NCBI GenBank assembly: GCA_028712155.1
Contig: JAQTQO010000002.1
Span: forward strand, 11,851-75,850
Direction of reading: 5' to 3'
DNA length: 64,000 nucleotides
Source of the DNA: Patescibacteria group bacterium
Lineage (GTDB): Bacteria > Patescibacteriota > Patescibacteriia > Buchananbacterales > GWA2-38-13
Positions 19,992 to 43,194 of this stretch are shown one piece after another. Position 1 is the stretch's first letter; every line of letters begins with the position of its first letter. Below the pieces are notes generated by a model. That model was given only the letters and a program-made list of their open reading frames with translations, was not told the DNA's origin and searched no databases. A program made the translations under genes and the position numbers.

Positions 19992-21785
19992 ATGTCCAAG
20001 CCCGCGAAACGCAGCAACAGCCGGTCGTTTCGAGGTCACGGCGGACCATTACGCGAGCTCATTACGCACGGCGAAGACCACCGCGCATGGAAAGAAAAGA
20101 TCGTCACGCTTCCACGGCTCAACCTCAACAACCGCCAGCTCTACGATTTGGAACTGCTGTTGAACGGCGGCTTTTCGCCCCTGCGCGGGTTTCTCGACGC
20201 GGAGAACTACGCCAGCGTTGTCCAGCACGGACGCCTCAGCGACGGGACGATCTGGCCGATTCCCATTGTCCTTGATGTTGCCGAAGGTCGGGCATTTTCT
20301 GCCGGGCAGGAAATCGCTCTATGTGACGCATTCGGCAAACCGCTCGCCGTGCTTTCCGTCACTTCGGTGTACCGTCCCGACATCTTGCGCGAGGCAACCG
20401 AGGTGTACGGTACGATCGATCCCGCGCATCCCGGGGTGAAATACCTGCTGCAGGAAACCGGCCGCGTGTACCTCGGCGGCGAGATCTACGGCCTTGCGCT
20501 GTCCGACCAATATGATTTTTCCGATCTGCGGCATACCCCGCGACAGCTGCGAGAATGGTTTGCAACGAACGGATGGGAACGCATCGTCGGATTTCAAACC
20601 CGGAATCCCCTGCACCGCGCGCACGTAGCAATGATCCAACGGGCCATGGCGCAACACGGCGCGCGGGCGCTCCTGCACCCCGTGGTCGGGCTGACGAAAG
20701 AAAACGACGTCGATTACGTGACGCGCGTACGGTGCTACCAAAAAATTCACCGCCACCACCTTGGTGCAGAGGCTTCGAAGCTCAGCTTACTGCCGCTCGC
20801 CATGCGGATGGCCGGCCCGCGTGAAGCGGTGCTGCATGCGATCATCCGAAAAAACTACGGCTGCACGCACTTCATCGTCGGCCGCGACCACGCCGGGCCG
20901 GGCGCGGACGCCACGGGCCGACCGTTCTACAACCCCTACGATGCGCAAACCGCCGCCGCCAAAGCAGCCGACGAAATCGGCATCGAAATTATCCCGATGT
21001 CCGAGTTTGTGTACGTTGCCGAGCGGCACCAGTACCTGCCGGTCAACGAAGTGCCGACCGGCCACACCGTAAAAAAAATCTCCGGTACTCAGCTGCGGCA
21101 AATGCTCGCCGATGACGCGGAAATCCCGGAATGGTTTTCGTTCCCCGAAGTCATCGAAGTGCTGCGCCGCAGCACCCAACGCCAGCGGAATTCCGGACTG
21201 ACGGTCTTTTTCACCGGTCTGCCGTCCGCCGGAAAATCGACGCTCGCGACCCGGCTGTACGCCAAGCTCCTGGAACTGCAGGACAAAGCCGTGACGCTTC
21301 TGGACGGCGACGTCATCCGCCAACACCTCTCCAAAGGTCTGGGTTTTTCCAAAGAAGACCGCGACATTAACATCGCGCGAATCGGATTTGTCGCAAGTGA
21401 GATCACCAAACACGGCGGCATCGCGATTTGCGCTGCTGTTTCTCCGTATGAAGAAGCGCGGCGGAAAAACCGCCAGCTGATCGGCCGTTACGGCCGTTAC
21501 GTCGAGGTTTACGTTTCCACCCCGCTGTCGGTATGCCGTCAGCGTGACCCGAAAGGCCTCTACTCCCGCGCCGCGCAAGGGCTGAGCCAGAACGTCACCG
21601 GCGTTACGGATCCCTACGAACCGCCGAAATCACCGGAAATCACCATCGACACGACCGATATCGATCCGGAGGCAGCCGTCGAACGCATCCTGCAATACCT
21701 CGGCATACCGCGACCGGAGCACAGCGCGAGCGACCAGCTCCGGGCAGAAACCCGCGGAGCGGCGCGGAACACGACGTCTCCATGA
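19992..21785 (+). CDS. sat/cysC: Bifunctional sulfate adenylyltransferase / adenylylsulfate kinase (PAPS synthesis)
   Basis: ATG at 19992 (MSKPAKRS...); the tool ORF begins upstream at 19713. ATP-sulfurylase motif QTRNPLHRAH. C-terminal APS-kinase P-loop GLPSAGKSTLATRLY plus ...DGDVIRQHLSKGLGFSKEDRDINIARIGFVA. Stop overlaps the wzm start. Confidence 0.85.
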   Translation: MSKPAKRSNSRSFRGHGGPLRELITHGEDHRAWKEKIVTLPRLNLNNRQLYDLELLLNGGFSPLRGFLDAENYASVVQHGRLSDGTIWPIPIVLDVAEGRAFSAGQEIALCDAFGKPLAVLSVTSVYRPDILREATEVYGTIDPAHPGVKYLLQETGRVYLGGEIYGLALSDQYDFSDLRHTPRQLREWFATNGWERIVGFQTRNPLHRAHVAMIQRAMAQHGARALLHPVVGLTKENDVDYVTRVRCYQKIHRHHLGAEASKLSLLPLAMRMAGPREAVLHAIIRKNYGCTHFIVGRDHAGPGADATGRPFYNPYDAQTAAAKAADEIGIEIIPMSEFVYVAERHQYLPVNEVPTGHTVKKISGTQLRQMLADDAEIPEWFSFPEVIEVLRRSTQRQRNSGLTVFFTGLPSAGKSTLATRLYAKLLELQDKAVTLLDGDVIRQHLSKGLGFSKEDRDINIARIGFVASEITKHGGIAICAAVSPYEEARRKNRQLIGRYGRYVEVYVSTPLSVCRQRDPKGLYSRAAQGLSQNVTGVTDPYEPPKSPEITIDTTDIDPEAAVERILQYLGIPRPEHSASDQLRAETRGAARNTTSP

Positions 21786-41310: not shown

Positions 41311-43194
41311 ATGCTTTCCCAGCACTACTCACGATACATTTTTTGGGGGCTTTTCGCTCTGGTGCCGATAACGACGATACTCGGCTGGTCAACCCGGCAA
41401 ATCTGGGGAACCCTGCTGGTTTCCGGCATCGTCTTCACGCTGCTTTTTTTGGACGCCCTGGGCGGCTGGCACGAACCACGCCAACGCCTGCCGCTCCCCC
41501 TGCTCATGTTTGCCGGGTTGCTGCTCACCGCAACCCTGGTTTCCACGTACGCATATGCTTCACTCATCGTCCTGCTCCAGTTCGGGGCAGGCTGCGCCGT
41601 CTTCTCCCTGGCCCAACGCCACGGTCAACCGGCTGCACGACAGCAATGGATCAGCGCCGCGCTCATCGCCGGCGGTGCCGTTTCCGCCGCGTACGCCGTC
41701 GCGCAGACTTTTCAGCTCAAAAACTTAGAAACCGGGGTCGGCGCCACGTTCATTTGGAAAAACACACTGGCCGGCTTTTTGACGCTCGTTGCGCCGCTCG
41801 CGCTCACGGCGTACCTGGGGACGGCGCAGCGTTGGTTAAAAGTACTGCTTGGCATTGCCCTGGCAATGTTTGGCACCGCGCTCTATTTCACCAATTCGCA
41901 GGCGGCATGGCTTGCCACTGCCATCGGGGGCGTGATAGTCATTTGGGGAAATGCCGTCCACGGGCAACGGTCGACTCCTGCGGTTCTCAAGTCGCTGATC
42001 GTTCCCGCGGCGTTGACCCTGACGGCAATCGTTGCCATTTTTCAGGCCAATGCCCGCTTGTACCCCGCGACGAGCGCCACCGCTGCCACGGCAACGGTTA
42101 TCACCACGATCCCCGCCTCTTCAATCCAATCCCGCCTGTCCTACTGGGCGACGAGCTGGGAAATCGTCAAGGATTTTCCGCTGCTGGGCGTCGGCCCGGG
42201 CAACTTTGCGACGTGGTACGCCCACAAATTCACCCAGCCGTGGCTCTATGTCATCAGCCCGCACAATTACCTGGTGTACCTGGCGGTGACCGCCGGAATT
42301 CCCGCGACGATAGTTTTTTTGTGGTTTGTGCTGCAGGCCGCCGTGCAGACGCGGCGGTGGCTTAGGCACGCGCGAACCGAGAAATTCCCCGCACAACGCT
42401 TTGCGCTGGTGCTCGCTTGGGCGGCGGCGGGTACGTGCCTGTTGCTGCACAGCCTGCTCGATTTAAGCCTGGAAGTTCCGGCGATCAGCCTGCTATGGTG
42501 GCTCGTGCTCGGTCTGCTGTACGCCAATCTCGAGGCAGATGCGCCAAGGCAGGCTGCGCGCGCCGGCGGAAACATCGGGCGGCTGGTGCTCGCTTCCGGG
42601 TTCGTGGGGATGGTCATGGCCGCCCTGTTCGCCGACAACTACTACCAACGGGCATTTTCCCTGCAGGGGGGAATCGGCCAGGCCGAGGAACGATTACGGT
42701 TGCTGGAGCAATCGCGACGGCTGATGCCGTGGTCGGCCGACACCATCGAGGCGATTGCCGTTGCTCATTGGGATGCCGTGCTGGAACACGTCGGCGACCG
42801 GCAAACCCACATGGATGCAGCGCTGACTGCGGCACAGTCCGCGGTCGCCCTTGATCCGGCCGCCGCGCATCGTCACTGGGTGCTCGGCAGGATGTATTCC
42901 CAGGTGCACACGCCGCAGCGCCCGTACGGAGCGCTGGCCATCGCCCACCTGCAGCAAGCCATTGCGTACGACTTCCATGACCCGGGCTACTATAGAACAC
43001 TGGCGGAAGCCTACCTGCGTTTTGATCTGCGGCGACAGGCCCGCCAAACCATTGATGCCGGTCTCGCCCTTTACCCGCCGGAGGAAATCTCGCGCATCGT
43101 GGCCGGGGCGGTCGTCTACGAGCAGTTCGGGCTCAGGGAACGACTCGAGCAACTCAAGGAACTCCGGCAGTACACGGAACCAAAACCGAATTGA
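41311..43194 (+). CDS. O-antigen ligase/polymerase family (Wzy_C) membrane protein with C-terminal TPR repeats; candidate PglL/TfpO-like O-oligosaccharyltransferase
   Basis: ~10 TM segments. ...YVISPHNYLVYLAVTAGIPATIVFLWF... is Wzy_C-like. The C-terminal ~200 aa are TPR-like. The gene is convergent on and immediately adjacent to the major pilin gene. Confidence 0.6.
   Translation: MLSQHYSRYIFWGLFALVPITTILGWSTRQIWGTLLVSGIVFTLLFLDALGGWHEPRQRLPLPLLMFAGLLLTATLVSTYAYASLIVLLQFGAGCAVFSLAQRHGQPAARQQWISAALIAGGAVSAAYAVAQTFQLKNLETGVGATFIWKNTLAGFLTLVAPLALTAYLGTAQRWLKVLLGIALAMFGTALYFTNSQAAWLATAIGGVIVIWGNAVHGQRSTPAVLKSLIVPAALTLTAIVAIFQANARLYPATSATAATATVITTIPASSIQSRLSYWATSWEIVKDFPLLGVGPGNFATWYAHKFTQPWLYVISPHNYLVYLAVTAGIPATIVFLWFVLQAAVQTRRWLRHARTEKFPAQRFALVLAWAAAGTCLLLHSLLDLSLEVPAISLLWWLVLGLLYANLEADAPRQAARAGGNIGRLVLASGFVGMVMAALFADNYYQRAFSLQGGIGQAEERLRLLEQSRRLMPWSADTIEAIAVAHWDAVLEHVGDRQTHMDAALTAAQSAVALDPAAAHRHWVLGRMYSQVHTPQRPYGALAIAHLQQAIAYDFHDPGYYRTLAEAYLRFDLRRQARQTIDAGLALYPPEEISRIVAGAVVYEQFGLRERLEQLKELRQYTEPKPN

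What the first reader, a model, noticed from the sequence alone, without database searches (positions are those of the whole stretch)
19992..43194. 23-kb mosaic glycan locus combining ABC-dependent and Wzx/Wzy-type machinery, two WbaP paralogues, GT11 fucosyltransferase and five MTase-like genes; central block has lower GC
The locus encodes two initiating polyprenyl-phosphate sugar transferases (30135-31478 and 39882-41225, paralogous). It also encodes Wzm/Wzt, a Wzx flippase and a Wzy_C-family protein. Glycosyltransferases comprise a GT2-GT4 fusion, three GT2, one GT4 and an alpha-1,2-fucosyltransferase. Methyltransferases comprise FkbM, DUF268-like and class I types.

Genes between ~25.5 and ~37 kb are ~45-52% GC against ~62-65% for the flanks. 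This is the compositional pattern typical of horizontally exchanged O-antigen/capsule cassettes. Having both export routes suggests either two distinct glycans or a hybrid pathway.
Basis: partly seen in the sequence, partly recalled or inferred. Interest (0 to 1): 0.55.

Follow-up and report, generated by a model that had tools for sequence, protein, structure and literature searches.

The report
Glycan island inside a CPR pilus operon
A 23-kb block of sugar-building genes sits between the pilin gene and the pilin-processing gene of an ultrasmall (Patescibacteria) bacterium, and most likely makes two different glycans, one sulfated and methylated, that are attached to the pilus protein rather than forming an O-antigen or capsule.

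Summary
The GC contrast is overstated. Flanks are 0.56-0.63, not 0.62-0.65. The dip comes in two blocks (gene GC 0.48-0.58), separated by a first initiating-transferase gene of host-like composition.

The window comes from a Patescibacteria MAG, and the locus interrupts a type IV pilus operon, between the pilin gene and prepilin peptidase pilD. Two other Patescibacteria genomes have pilin directly next to pilD. Four others carry glycan islands of different content in that interval.

The "Wzy_C" protein carries a C-terminal TPR domain. It lies beside pilin genes in every close relative and in distant CPR and Chloroflexota homologues. It is best read as a protein O-oligosaccharyltransferase, not a polymerase.

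The locus has two modules:
- **Module A:** PAPS synthase, Wzm, Wzt, a sulfotransferase-methyltransferase, glycosyltransferases and the first initiating transferase.
- **Module B:** Wzx, methyltransferases, a fucosyltransferase, GT2/GT4 enzymes and the second initiating transferase.

Wzt lacks its usual carbohydrate-binding module. It carries instead a methyltransferase domain paralogous to that of the neighbouring sulfotransferase-methyltransferase, a rare architecture.

Verdict: a new variant of a known kind, a pilin or protein O-glycosylation island. All functions are inferred from sequence.

The parts
19065..19889 (-). Prepilin peptidase PilD; left boundary of the island
   Evidence: Pfam A24_N_bact 4e-31 and Peptidase_A24. 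In L090 and L172 its orthologue directly follows the pilin genes.
19883..19912 (+). Promoter-like site upstream of the PAPS synthase operon
   Evidence: TTGCCA-18-TATAAT, 11 of 12 matches, the best in the region. This is a consensus match only.
19992..21785 (+). Bifunctional ATP sulfurylase/APS kinase (PAPS synthase)
   Evidence: NF004040 4e-239, above cut-off. Pfam ATP-sulfurylase, APS_kinase and PUA_2. Its stop overlaps the Wzm start.
21782..22564 (+). Wzm, ABC-2 permease
   Evidence: ABC2_membrane 3.9e-20. 73% identical in relative L086.
22561..23949 (+). Wzt nucleotide-binding domain (residues 1-240) fused to a class I methyltransferase domain (250-462) in place of the usual Wzt_C carbohydrate-binding module
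   Evidence: ABC_tran plus Methyltransf_12. The methyltransferase domain is 56% identical to that of the next gene. Nearly all close Wzt homologues carry PF14524 instead. Only five other 50%-identity clusters among the top 150 of an exhaustive search combine this domain with a methyltransferase, one of them with Wzt_C as well. SAM motifs are conserved.
23939..25495 (+). Sulfotransferase, a charged helix of about 45 aa with a basic amphipathic segment, a Pro/Ala linker, and a methyltransferase; candidate chain terminator or modifier
   Evidence: Sulfotransfer_3 8.8e-12 plus Methyltransf_12. The start at ATG 23939 is confirmed by the identical 518-aa database protein P0207. Helix analysis. In relative L086 the two domains are separate genes.
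25492..26376 (+). Class I SAM methyltransferase; lowest GC3 in the island
   Evidence: Methyltransf_11 5.9e-16. GC3 is 0.539, 4.3 sd below the non-island genes.
26428..27756 (-). WsaF-like glycosyltransferase
   Evidence: WsaF_C 9e-45. Solved WsaF 2X0D, E = 2.9e-29 over residues 60-390.
27908..30100 (+). Dual-module GT2-GT4 glycosyltransferase; candidate polymerase of module A
   Evidence: Glycos_transf_2 at residues 10-126, and Glyco_transf_4 plus Glycos_transf_1 at 360-701.
30135..31478 (+). First initiating polyprenyl-phosphate hexose-1-phosphate transferase (WbaP/WcaJ type)
   Evidence: Bac_transf 1e-61. TIGR03025 1.6e-119, above cut-off.
31490..33031 (-). Wzx-type MOP flippase
   Evidence: Polysacc_synt 3.3e-25. 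Ten hydrophobic segments.
33349..34098 (+). DUF268 / class I methyltransferase-like protein
   Evidence: DUF268 5.8e-14. 39% identical orthologue in L001.
34106..34963 (+). GT11 (alpha-1,2-fucosyltransferase family)
   Evidence: Glyco_transf_11 4.7e-30. 41% identical in L001.
34948..35877 (+). FkbM-family methyltransferase
   Evidence: TIGR01444 7.5e-29, above cut-off. Absent from L001.
35864..38623 (+). Three GT2 glycosyltransferases (35864-36844, 36869-37732, 37748-38623)
   Evidence: Glycos_transf_2 4.9e-35, 8.4e-37 and 2.6e-23. 39%, 55% and 65% identical to L001 orthologues.
38620..39807 (+). GT4 glycosyltransferase
   Evidence: Glyco_trans_1_4 2.5e-20. 57% identical in L001.
39882..41225 (+). 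Second initiating transferase (WbaP/WcaJ type); conserved right-end gene
   Evidence: Bac_transf 1e-63. 62% identical in L001 and 82% identical to the partial gene in L085.
41249..41279 (+). GC-rich hairpin followed by a T run, between the second initiating transferase and the Wzy_C-TPR gene
   Evidence: Read from the sequence: tcccgcc-cct-ggcggga, then a run of T. A related element lies between pilC and pilT.
41311..43194 (+). Wzy_C membrane domain with a C-terminal TPR domain (about residues 445-620); candidate O-oligosaccharyltransferase
   Evidence: Wzy_C 8.1e-15. A profile of the family hits WaaL 7TPG at 2.4e-7 and TPR proteins. TPR helices have 10-residue-block pLDDT mostly 76-94. It is adjacent to pilin genes in L001, L084 and L085. 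Analogous proteins are pilin-adjacent in L091, L004 and L006.
43234..43261 (.). Bidirectional terminator-like hairpin between the convergent Wzy_C-TPR and pilin genes
   Evidence: Read from the sequence: ccccgctccgat-tttc-atcggagcgggg.
43289..43825 (-). Major pilin candidate (178 aa); right boundary of the island
   Evidence: The N-terminus MKARKGFTLIELLVVIAIIGLL has the prepilin motif. N_methyl 1.2e-8. It has a conserved C-terminal Cys-bounded loop containing Ser/Thr.
44172..48730 (-). pilC (44172-45377), pilT (45454-46533), pilB (47000-48730)
   Evidence: T2SSF 2.6e-60, T2SSE 7.9e-22 and T2SSE 3e-128. 73-79% identical in L001.

Best explanation
The 23-kb locus is a protein O-glycosylation island inserted between the pilin gene and pilD in the type IV pilus operon of a Patescibacteria bacterium.

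**Shown**
- Gene content, gene position, and absence or replacement of the island at the same site in related genomes.

**Inferred pathway**
1. Two lipid-linked glycans are built on the cytoplasmic face of the membrane. Each is started by its own WbaP-type phosphoglycosyltransferase.
2. Module A (19992-31478) makes a polymer with the dual GT2-GT4 enzyme and the WsaF-like glycosyltransferase.
3. Module A decorates or caps that polymer with sulfate and O-methyl groups. PAPS comes from the co-operonic PAPS synthase. The sulfotransferase-methyltransferase, the free methyltransferase and the Wzt-fused methyltransferase carry out the modifications.
4. The Wzm/Wzt ABC transporter exports the module A product.
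5. Module B (31490-41225) makes a methylated, fucose-containing oligosaccharide of about six sugars. The Wzx flippase moves it across the membrane without polymerisation.
6. The Wzy_C-TPR protein (41311-43194) transfers these glycans as whole units to Ser/Thr of the pilin encoded next door, and possibly of other surface proteins. Its TPR domain is inferred to lie outside the cytoplasm and to dock the protein acceptor.
7. The variable interior of the island is exchanged between lineages. This diversifies the pilus surface.
For: **Context**
- The island is flanked by pilD on the left and by pilin, pilC, pilT and pilB on the right, with pilM/N/O-like genes further right.

**Empty site**
- L090 (complete genome CP129476.1) and L172 share the window's synteny: pilM...pilB-pilC-pilin-pilin-pilD-minor pilins-LigA-amidase. 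L172 also has pilT. Both have no island.

**Occupied site elsewhere**
- L091 has pilin, a Wzy_C-TPR gene, eight glycan genes and then pilD.
- Relative 2 (L088, L086 and L084) has the window's layout.
- Relative 3 (L089 and L085) has an amino-sugar/Wzx module next to pilD. It keeps WbaP, a methyltransferase and Wzy_C-TPR next to the pilins.

**Linkage of Wzy_C-TPR to pilin**
- All four close loci whose context is visible show it.
- So do the best non-CPR homologues L004 and L006 (Chloroflexota, pilD-pilT-pilin-Wzy_C).
- So does the best metagenome hit L092.
- Most distant Wzy_C homologues lack it: 5 of 84 and 3 of 80 loci have a pilin gene within 3 kb.

**Architecture of the candidate transferase**
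- Wzy_C is present in all known O-oligosaccharyltransferases, and TfpO/TfpM genes lie next to their pilin (PMC9829042).
- PglL and WsfB carry a C-terminal TPR (PMC2943079).
- The membrane domain is homologous to the solved ligase WaaL.

**Precedent**
- A WbaP-type initiator with Wzm/Wzt, a methyl cap and a Wzy_C transferase is the Geobacillus S-layer glycosylation scheme. That scheme includes a WsaF enzyme and low-GC central glycosyltransferase genes (PMC2943079).

**Absences**
- No Wzz, Wza, Wzc or LCP gene occurs anywhere in the window.
Against: - There is no biochemical evidence of any kind.
- The pilins end in His or His-Gln, not in the C-terminal Ser/Thr used by TfpO and TfpM. Ser/Thr lie 2-4 residues upstream, inside the Cys loop.
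- In the window and its close relatives the transferase gene is convergent with the pilin gene, not downstream of it on the same strand.
- The AlphaFold model of the membrane domain was poor (pLDDT 60). The outside location of the TPR therefore rests on counting hydrophobic segments and on remembered WaaL topology.
- Adjacency among the close relatives is inherited, not independent evidence.
- No GDP-fucose or dTDP-rhamnose synthesis genes are in the window.
- Other surface proteins, such as the 2951-aa beta-helix protein at 55036-63891, could be the real or additional acceptors.
Confidence: 0.55

Rival explanations
1. The locus makes one or two free surface polysaccharides (O-antigen-like, capsule or exopolysaccharide). 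The Wzy_C protein is the Wzy polymerase of the Wzx-dependent half. Its position in the pilus operon is only an insertion hot spot.
For: - Wzx, a WbaP-type initiator and a Wzy_C-domain protein co-occur.
- The low-GC central genes are typical of exchanged polysaccharide cassettes.
- The pilin lacks a TfpO-type C-terminal Ser.
Against: - The Wzy_C protein carries a TPR domain, as PglL and WsfB do (PMC2943079).
- A hairpin separates it from the upstream operon.
- It is retained next to the pilins at 45-50% identity while the upstream genes differ. A repeat-unit-specific polymerase should change together with the glycosyltransferases.
- No Wzz, Wza, Wzc or LCP gene is in the window.
- Unrelated Wzy_C-TPR genes sit directly downstream of pilin genes in L091, L004 and L006.
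- Patescibacteria are not known to make LPS (background knowledge).
Confidence: 0.18
2. The Wzy_C-TPR protein is a WaaL-like ligase. It attaches the exported glycans to a non-protein acceptor such as a glycolipid anchor, a lipoteichoic-like polymer or peptidoglycan. The TPR domain serves in complex assembly.
For: - The only solved homologue of the membrane domain is the O-antigen ligase WaaL 7TPG, E = 2.4e-7.
- The best NCBIfam hits are the IctB family and a "putative O-glycosylation ligase", both below cut-off.
Against: - No candidate lipid-acceptor synthesis genes are in the window.
- Linkage to pilin genes recurs in several gene orders.
- TPR domains are documented in protein O-oligosaccharyltransferases (PMC2943079).
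Confidence: 0.12
3. The locus serves general O-glycosylation of many surface proteins, for example an S-layer or the neighbouring giant beta-helix protein. The pilin is one substrate among many or not a substrate, as with Neisseria PglL or Geobacillus WsaB.
For: - At 627 aa with a C-terminal TPR, the protein resembles PglL and WsfB, which act on internal sites, more than the roughly 425-aa TfpO/TfpM (PMC9829042, PMC2943079).
- The WsaF homologue and the initiator-plus-Wzm/Wzt layout copy S-layer glycosylation clusters.
- A 2951-aa beta-helix surface-type protein lies in the same pilus cluster.
Against: - No S-layer gene was identified in the window.
- The only conserved neighbour of the transferase across lineages is a pilin gene.
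Confidence: 0.15

Closest known systems
Pilin-linked O-oligosaccharyltransferase systems (Pseudomonas aeruginosa TfpO/PilO, Moraxellaceae TfpM, Acinetobacter PglS)
   Same: - A Wzy_C-domain membrane protein is encoded next to a type IV pilin gene.
- The glycans come from Und-PP-type pathways started by phosphoglycosyltransferases.
- The pilin has a C-terminal disulfide-type loop (PMC9829042).
   Different: - The protein is 627 aa with a TPR domain, against about 425 aa for TfpO/TfpM.
- It is convergent with the pilin gene rather than co-directional.
- The pilin ends in His, not Ser/Thr.
- The dedicated glycan genes (23 kb, two modules) lie inside the pilus operon. TfpO instead borrows O-antigen units made elsewhere.
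- The host is a Patescibacteria bacterium.
Neisseria PglL and Paenibacillus alvei WsfB (general and S-layer O-oligosaccharyltransferases with a C-terminal TPR)
   Same: - Wzy_C plus a C-terminal TPR architecture.
- Similar size: PglL is 620 aa, this protein 627 aa (PMC2943079, PMC9829042).
   Different: - No detectable close sequence relationship was established here.
- Pfam PglL_A and Wzy_C_2 domains were not hit.
- The acceptor proteins are unknown.
Geobacillus stearothermophilus NRS 2004/3a S-layer glycosylation (slg) cluster
   Same: - A WbaP-type initiator with a Wzm/Wzt ABC transporter.
- A WsaF-type glycosyltransferase.
- A methyltransferase-based cap.
- A Wzy_C transferase.
- Low-GC central glycosyltransferase genes (PMC2943079).
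   Different: - No rml genes and no S-layer gene are nearby.
- Sulfation genes are added.
- Wzt carries a methyltransferase domain.
- A second, Wzx-dependent module is present.
- The locus is embedded in a pilus operon.
E. coli O9a / Klebsiella O3, O7, O12 polymerase-terminator ABC-transporter pathway (WbdA, WbdD, Wzt with a carbohydrate-binding module)
   Same: - Wzm/Wzt.
- A multi-module glycosyltransferase.
- A bifunctional modifying enzyme that contains a methyltransferase and a charged helical segment (PMC11231755, PMC3482155).
   Different: - A sulfotransferase takes the place of the kinase.
- The helix is short (about 45 aa) and its heptad signal is weak.
- The Wzt carbohydrate-binding module (PF14524) is absent and replaced by a methyltransferase paralogue.
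- The initiator is a WbaP-type enzyme rather than WecA.

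Membership tests
Wzy_C-family protein O-oligosaccharyltransferases (PglL/PglS/TfpO/TfpM/WsaB/WsfB) | Wzy_C (O-antigen ligase) domain in a polytopic membrane protein | tested here: met
   PF04932 8.1e-15, above cut-off. A profile of the family hits WaaL 7TPG at 2.4e-7. Multiple hydrophobic segments.
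Wzy_C-family protein O-oligosaccharyltransferases (PglL/PglS/TfpO/TfpM/WsaB/WsfB) | Gene adjacent to the gene of its acceptor protein (the pilin, for TfpO/TfpM/PglS) | tested here: met
   The window gene is convergent with the pilin gene 95 bp away. The same holds in L001, L084 and L085. Analogues in L091, L004 and L006 are co-directional with their pilin genes.
Wzy_C-family protein O-oligosaccharyltransferases (PglL/PglS/TfpO/TfpM/WsaB/WsfB) | C-terminal soluble or TPR domain, as reported for PglL and WsfB | tested here: met
   TPR helices at residues about 445-620, with 10-residue-block pLDDT mostly 76-94. Foldseek and profile hits to TPR proteins. Feature as described in PMC2943079.
Wzy_C-family protein O-oligosaccharyltransferases (PglL/PglS/TfpO/TfpM/WsaB/WsfB) | Whole-unit transfer of a lipid-linked glycan to Ser/Thr of a protein | not testable with these tools
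   Needs glycoproteomics or reconstitution in E. coli.
TfpO/TfpM subclass | Acceptor is the C-terminal Ser/Thr residue of the pilin; enzyme of about 425 aa | tested here: not met
   All seven CPR pilins aligned end in His or His-Gln. The enzyme is 627 aa. It should therefore not be filed as TfpO or TfpM.
ABC-transporter-dependent polymerase-terminator glycan assembly | Wzm permease plus Wzt nucleotide-binding protein | tested here: met
ABC-transporter-dependent polymerase-terminator glycan assembly | Carbohydrate-binding module (PF14524, Wzt_C) on Wzt that reads the chain cap | tested here: not met
   No PF14524 hit. Residues 250-462 are a class I methyltransferase. Most close homologues do carry PF14524.
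ABC-transporter-dependent polymerase-terminator glycan assembly | [quoted passage not shown] | tested here: inconclusive
   The sulfotransferase-methyltransferase has a charged helix of about 45 aa and a basic amphipathic segment. The heptad signal is weak and the helix is short.
Wzx/Wzy-dependent polysaccharide pathway | Wzx flippase | tested here: met
   Polysacc_synt 3.3e-25.
Wzx/Wzy-dependent polysaccharide pathway | Dedicated Wzy polymerase and Wzz/PCP chain-length regulator | tested here: not met
   No PCP/Wzz domain occurs in any ORF of the window. The only Wzy_C protein behaves as a conserved, pilin-linked, TPR-bearing gene.
S-layer glycosylation (slg) clusters of Geobacillus/Paenibacillus | WbaP-type initiator, Wzm/Wzt, WsaF-type glycosyltransferase and Wzy_C transferase in one locus | tested here: met
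   Scheme as in PMC2943079.
S-layer glycosylation (slg) clusters of Geobacillus/Paenibacillus | Linked S-layer protein gene and nucleotide-sugar (rml) genes | tested here: not met
   None among the window ORFs scanned.
Horizontally exchanged genomic island | Absent or replaced at the same site in related genomes | tested here: met
   Empty site in L090 and L172. Different content in L089 and L091.
Horizontally exchanged genomic island | Atypical composition | tested here: met
   GC3 is 0.667 in the island against 0.725 outside, p = 0.006. Six genes lie more than 2 sd low. The end genes have host-like composition.
Horizontally exchanged genomic island | Mobility hallmarks (integrase, tRNA target, flanking direct repeats) | tested here: not met
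   No tRNA gene. No long flanking direct repeats. No integrase or transposase domain.

The most novel reading that the evidence does not exclude
A CPR episymbiont coats its type IV pilus with two dedicated glycans. One is a sulfated, methyl-capped polymer. Its ABC exporter has lost the usual cap-reading carbohydrate-binding module and carries instead a paralogue of the capping methyltransferase. The enzyme domain that writes the cap would then also gate export. The pilA-pilD interval would be a hypervariable "pilus serotype" locus that shapes host attachment and phage escape in Patescibacteria.
Probability: 0.2. Interest if true: 0.75.

Novelty: new variant of a known kind. Interest (0 to 1): 0.55.

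Why it matters
Type IV pili are the main known tool that Patescibacteria use to bind and live on host cells. A 2024 study of Saccharibacteria pili states that pilin glycosylation in this group is only predicted and unexplored (PMC11623550).

A recurrent, variable glycan island sits exactly between pilA and pilD, with a conserved oligosaccharyltransferase candidate. This gives a concrete, testable genetic basis for pilus glycosylation and its diversification in a lineage with genomes of about 1 Mb. In such a genome, 23 kb is a large investment.

Two side features may interest specialists in glycan assembly:
- a PAPS synthase and sulfotransferase built into an ABC-transporter pathway;
- a rare Wzt that carries a methyltransferase instead of its carbohydrate-binding module.

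A TPR-bearing O-oligosaccharyltransferase from a new lineage could also be of use in glycoengineering.

Tried and rejected
- **Structure of Wzy_C-TPR.** The AlphaFold2 model built from a 7-sequence alignment had pLDDT 60, with the membrane part mostly below 60. Foldseek against the PDB returned only TPR proteins. The model could not separate ligase, transferase and polymerase readings.
- **Single-sequence PDB search.** A search with Wzy_C-TPR found only weak TPR hits. The profile search added WaaL 7TPG.
- **Genome-collection scan.** The Wzy_C-TPR alignment found only relatives of 31% identity or less, mostly Verrucomicrobiota. The source genome and its close relatives are not among the species representatives.
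- **Metagenome scan.** It also returned only distant relatives. It was useful only for counting pilin adjacency.
- **Exact look-up of the window's own Wzy_C-TPR protein.** It was not on record.
- **Mobile-element hallmarks.** No tRNA gene, no integrase and no long flanking repeats were found. An integrative-element explanation was dropped.
- **Wzt-fused domain as a dead "reader" domain.** This is disfavoured. SAM motif I (LLxIGCGSLRGG) and the YxGVD acidic motif are kept in both fused and free copies.
- **The roughly 800-aa top hits of the exhaustive Wzt search.** They looked like further methyltransferase fusions. The five scanned with Pfam are tandem double nucleotide-binding-domain proteins.
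- **Mann, Kimber and Whitfield 2019 (Glycobiology).** This survey of terminators and Wzt carbohydrate-binding modules could not be read. Whether it already lists Wzt-methyltransferase or sulfotransferase terminators is unknown. Full-text searches found no paper describing either.

Full report
**1. The observation**

Sliding-window composition and ORF listing were followed by Pfam and NCBIfam scans of every large ORF.
- Wzm is at 21782-22564 and Wzt at 22561-23949.
- The GT2-GT4 fusion is at 27908-30100.
- Two 447-aa WbaP/WcaJ-type phosphoglycosyltransferases lie at 30135-31478 and 39882-41225. They are 52% identical.
- Wzx is at 31490-33031 on the - strand.
- DUF268, GT11 and FkbM follow, then three GT2 genes, a GT4 and a Wzy_C protein (41311-43194).

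- The first gene (19992-21785) is a bifunctional ATP sulfurylase/APS kinase (NF004040, 4e-239).
- 23939-25495 is a sulfotransferase-methyltransferase fusion. Its true start is the ATG at 23939, confirmed by an identical 518-aa database protein.
- 26428-27756 (- strand) is a WsaF-like glycosyltransferase. It matches the solved WsaF structure at E = 2.9e-29.

**2. Composition**

The GC contrast is real but smaller and patchier than claimed.
- Flanks are 0.55-0.63 per kb.
- The low stretches are about 25-28 kb (0.51-0.53) and 32-38 kb (0.49-0.54). They are separated by 29-32 kb at 0.58-0.61.
- Per gene, GC3 outside the island averages 0.725 (sd 0.043). Inside it averages 0.667 (Mann-Whitney p = 0.006).
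- The strongest outliers are the free methyltransferase (-4.3 sd), the first GT2 (-3.9), FkbM (-2.9), the second GT2 (-2.7), GT11 (-2.6) and GT2-GT4 (-2.2).
- The PAPS synthase, Wzm, Wzt, both initiating transferases, the GT4 and the Wzy_C gene are host-like.

The pattern is therefore "conserved ends and initiators, atypical interior", repeated in each of two modules.

**3. Source and context**

The Wzy_C protein, Wzt and PilD are each 100% identical to NCBI proteins of a "Patescibacteria group bacterium" MAG, on an 86-kb contig. The island lies inside a type IV pilus operon on the opposite strand.
- To the right lie a 2951-aa beta-helix protein, PilM, PilN-like and PilO-like proteins, PilB, PilT, PilC and a pilin (43289-43825; MKARKGFTLIELL...).
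- To the left lie PilD (19065-19889), two unknown genes, a minor pilin, another unknown gene, LigA and an amidase.
- The Wzy_C gene and the pilin gene are convergent, 95 bp apart, with a shared hairpin between them.

**4. Comparative evidence**

*Empty site.* Two genomes have the same operon and flanks as the window, with the pilin genes running straight into pilD. These are the complete Patescibacteria genome CP129476.1 (L090) and a 227-kb contig (L172). Their order is pilM...pilB-pilC-pilin-pilin-pilD-minor pilins-LigA-GatC-amidase, with pilT also present in L172.

*Same layout as the window.* In sample SRR22388013, L088 holds pilD and the N-terminal part of the PAPS synthase. It overlaps L086 by 15 nt. 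L086 holds the C-terminal part of the PAPS synthase, then Wzm, Wzt-methyltransferase, a sulfotransferase, a methyltransferase and a WbsX glycosyltransferase. L084 holds Wzy_C-TPR next to two pilins and pilC.

*Right half conserved.* L001/L002 has GT2, DUF268, a 503-aa membrane protein, GT11, three GT2, GT4, WbaP and Wzy_C-TPR next to two pilins, pilC and pilT. PilB, PilC and PilT are 73-79% identical to the window. The glycan genes are 39-65% identical. Identity is lowest (39-41%) in the pilin-distal genes DUF268, GT11 and the first GT2, and higher (50-65%) in the proximal ones.

*Left half swapped.* In sample SRR22388038, pilD is followed by two DegT aminotransferases, an acetyltransferase, methyltransferases, a Wzx and GT4/GT2 genes. 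There is no ABC transporter or PAPS synthase, and that locus has its own low-GC core. The right end keeps WbaP (82% identical to the window's second copy over the 82 residues present), a methyltransferase and Wzy_C-TPR next to two pilins.

*Independent instance.* A distant Patescibacteria contig (L091) has pilin, a Wzy_C-TPR gene (771 aa, barely alignable to the window's), eight methyltransferase, glycosyltransferase and GT-C genes, then pilD, all on one strand.

*Outside the CPR.* The best genome-collection hits are two Chloroflexota MAGs (L004, L006) with pilD-pilT-pilin-Wzy_C, and L004 was confirmed co-directional by ORF listing. The best metagenome hit (L092) also has a pilin gene directly upstream. 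Most distant homologues, mainly Verrucomicrobiota, have no pilin gene nearby: 5 of 84 and 3 of 80 loci have one within 3 kb.

Every contig of the close relatives breaks inside the island. This suggests strain-level heterogeneity.

**5. What the Wzy_C-TPR protein is**

- Its membrane domain is homologous to the solved O-antigen ligase WaaL (7TPG, E = 2.4e-7).
- Its C-terminal 180 residues or so form TPR repeats.
- All known bacterial O-oligosaccharyltransferases contain Wzy_C, and TfpO/TfpM are encoded next to their pilin (PMC9829042).
- PglL and the S-layer enzyme WsfB carry a C-terminal TPR motif (PMC2943079).
- A hairpin followed by a T run separates the gene from the upstream operon.
- The gene persists beside the pilins while upstream glycan genes differ. 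That is not expected of a repeat-unit-specific polymerase.
- No Wzz, Wza, Wzc or LCP gene occurs in the window.
- Three hydrophobic helices follow the region that aligns to WaaL. If WaaL's C-terminus is cytoplasmic (my recollection of the published structure, not tested here), the extra helix puts the TPR outside the cytoplasm, beside the catalytic loop.

I therefore read it as a protein O-oligosaccharyltransferase with the neighbouring pilin as the likeliest acceptor. It is not a TfpO/TfpM member. It is 627 aa, and the pilins end in His or His-Gln. Conserved Ser/Thr lie within a C-terminal Cys-bounded loop.

**6. Two modules**

*Module A.* It runs from the PAPS synthase through Wzm, Wzt-methyltransferase and sulfotransferase-methyltransferase to the free methyltransferase. 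These five genes have overlapping stops and starts and a strong promoter-like site at 19883-19912. The WsaF-like glycosyltransferase follows on the opposite strand, then GT2-GT4 and the first initiating transferase. This matches the Geobacillus S-layer glycan scheme: WbaP-type initiator, multi-module glycosyltransferases, methyl cap, Wzm/Wzt export and a Wzy_C transferase (PMC2943079). Sulfation is an addition.

*Module B.* It consists of Wzx, DUF268, GT11, FkbM, three GT2, GT4 and the second initiating transferase. It has one flippase, no polymerase and no chain-length regulator. This fits a single methylated oligosaccharide of about six sugars containing fucose.

Both products would be polyprenyl-diphosphate-linked. 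Both would therefore be possible substrates for one transferase of relaxed glycan specificity, as shown for PglL, PglS and TfpM (PMC9829042).

**7. The unusual Wzt**

- Residues 1-240 are the nucleotide-binding domain. Residues 250-462 are a class I methyltransferase, 56% identical to the methyltransferase domain of the next gene.
- Among the best 120 word-indexed homologues, nearly all carry the Wzt_C carbohydrate-binding module (PF14524) there instead.
- An exhaustive HMMER search of 1.84 billion cluster representatives was run. Among its top 150 hits, Pfam scans showed the nucleotide-binding domain combined with a methyltransferase in P0010 (75% identical, relative 2), P0166, P0180 and P0199 (35-38%).
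- P0012 carries the nucleotide-binding domain, Wzt_C and a methyltransferase together.
- Five of the roughly 520-920-aa two-stretch hits were scanned with Pfam, and all five are tandem double nucleotide-binding-domain proteins.
- SAM-binding motifs are conserved in fused and free copies. The fused domain is therefore probably active.

In characterised terminated systems, the carbohydrate-binding module reads the cap and gates export (PMC11231755). Here a methyltransferase on the transporter may add the cap at the point of export, or bind it. This is inference. I found no description of such a fusion and could not read the 2019 survey that might list it.

**8. The sulfotransferase-methyltransferase**

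The protein has these segments in order:
- a sulfotransferase domain with a GMHRSGTS loop;
- a charged helix of about 45 aa with a weak heptad pattern;
- a basic amphipathic segment (SWKLLGHVRRIKNLIRL);
- a Pro/Ala linker;
- the methyltransferase domain.

This loosely parallels the WbdD-type kinase-methyltransferase terminators (PMC3482155, PMC11231755). The "molecular ruler" feature is unproven. In relative 2 the two enzymes are separate genes.

**9. Verdict**

The finding is a real and correctly inventoried glycan locus. Its best explanation is a pilin or protein O-glycosylation island inserted in a Patescibacteria pilus operon, not an O-antigen or capsule cassette with a Wzy polymerase.

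It is a new variant of a known kind:
- it occurs in a new lineage;
- dedicated two-route glycan synthesis lies inside the pilus operon;
- sulfation is included;
- the transporter carries a methyltransferase.

No function has been shown experimentally. Confidence in the pilin-glycosylation reading is about 0.55.

Noticed in passing
window 190-2355 (+): A 721-aa protein has a DndB-like domain and a Swt1-like HEPN domain. Its GC is 0.375 against 0.565 for the whole window. It looks like a foreign defence-type gene at the contig edge.
   Followed up: no
window 55036-63891 (-): A 2951-aa protein with right-handed beta-helix/NosD repeats lies at the head of the pilus cluster, just upstream of pilM. 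L090 has a gene of 1401 aa in the same position. It may be a pilus-associated surface protein and an alternative glycosylation target.
   Followed up: partly
window 41228-41277 and 45389-45438: A 50-nt element containing a GC-rich hairpin (TCCCGCC...GGCGGGA) recurs in inverted orientation. One copy is in the spacer between the second initiating transferase and Wzy_C-TPR. The other is in the pilC/pilT spacer. It may be a shared terminator or regulatory element linking the transferase gene to the pilus operon.
   Followed up: no
L087 7433-9457 and 14994-17072: In a metagenome contig from the same study series, a 674-aa Wzt carries a nucleotide-binding domain, Wzt_C and a methyltransferase together. 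The locus also encodes an STT3/PglB-type oligosaccharyltransferase, a radical SAM enzyme and an asparagine synthase homologue.
   Followed up: no
L001 2152-3663: A 503-aa protein with at least 10 hydrophobic segments has no Pfam hit and no similarity to the window's Wzx or Wzy_C protein. It occupies the slot between DUF268 and GT11 in the relative's module B. It could be an unrecognised flippase, polymerase or GT-C enzyme.
   Followed up: partly
proteins P0129-P0178 (exhaustive search hits): Roughly 50 protein clusters of about 520-920 aa matched the Wzt query in two stretches. The five scanned with Pfam are tandem double nucleotide-binding-domain proteins, two of them with Wzt_C. This suggests a sizeable class of fused-dimer polysaccharide ABC ATPases.
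   Followed up: partly
L001/L002, L084, L085, L086/L088, L089 (contig ends): Every assembled contig of the close relatives ends inside the glycan island. L001 and L002 come from different samples and end at the same point. This suggests within-population variation of the island that breaks assemblies.
   Followed up: no
window 43289-43825 versus L001, L084, L085: The window has one pilin gene between Wzy_C-TPR and pilC, followed by a 313-bp AT-rich gap (43859-44171). The three close relatives each have two tandem pilin paralogues there.
   Followed up: no
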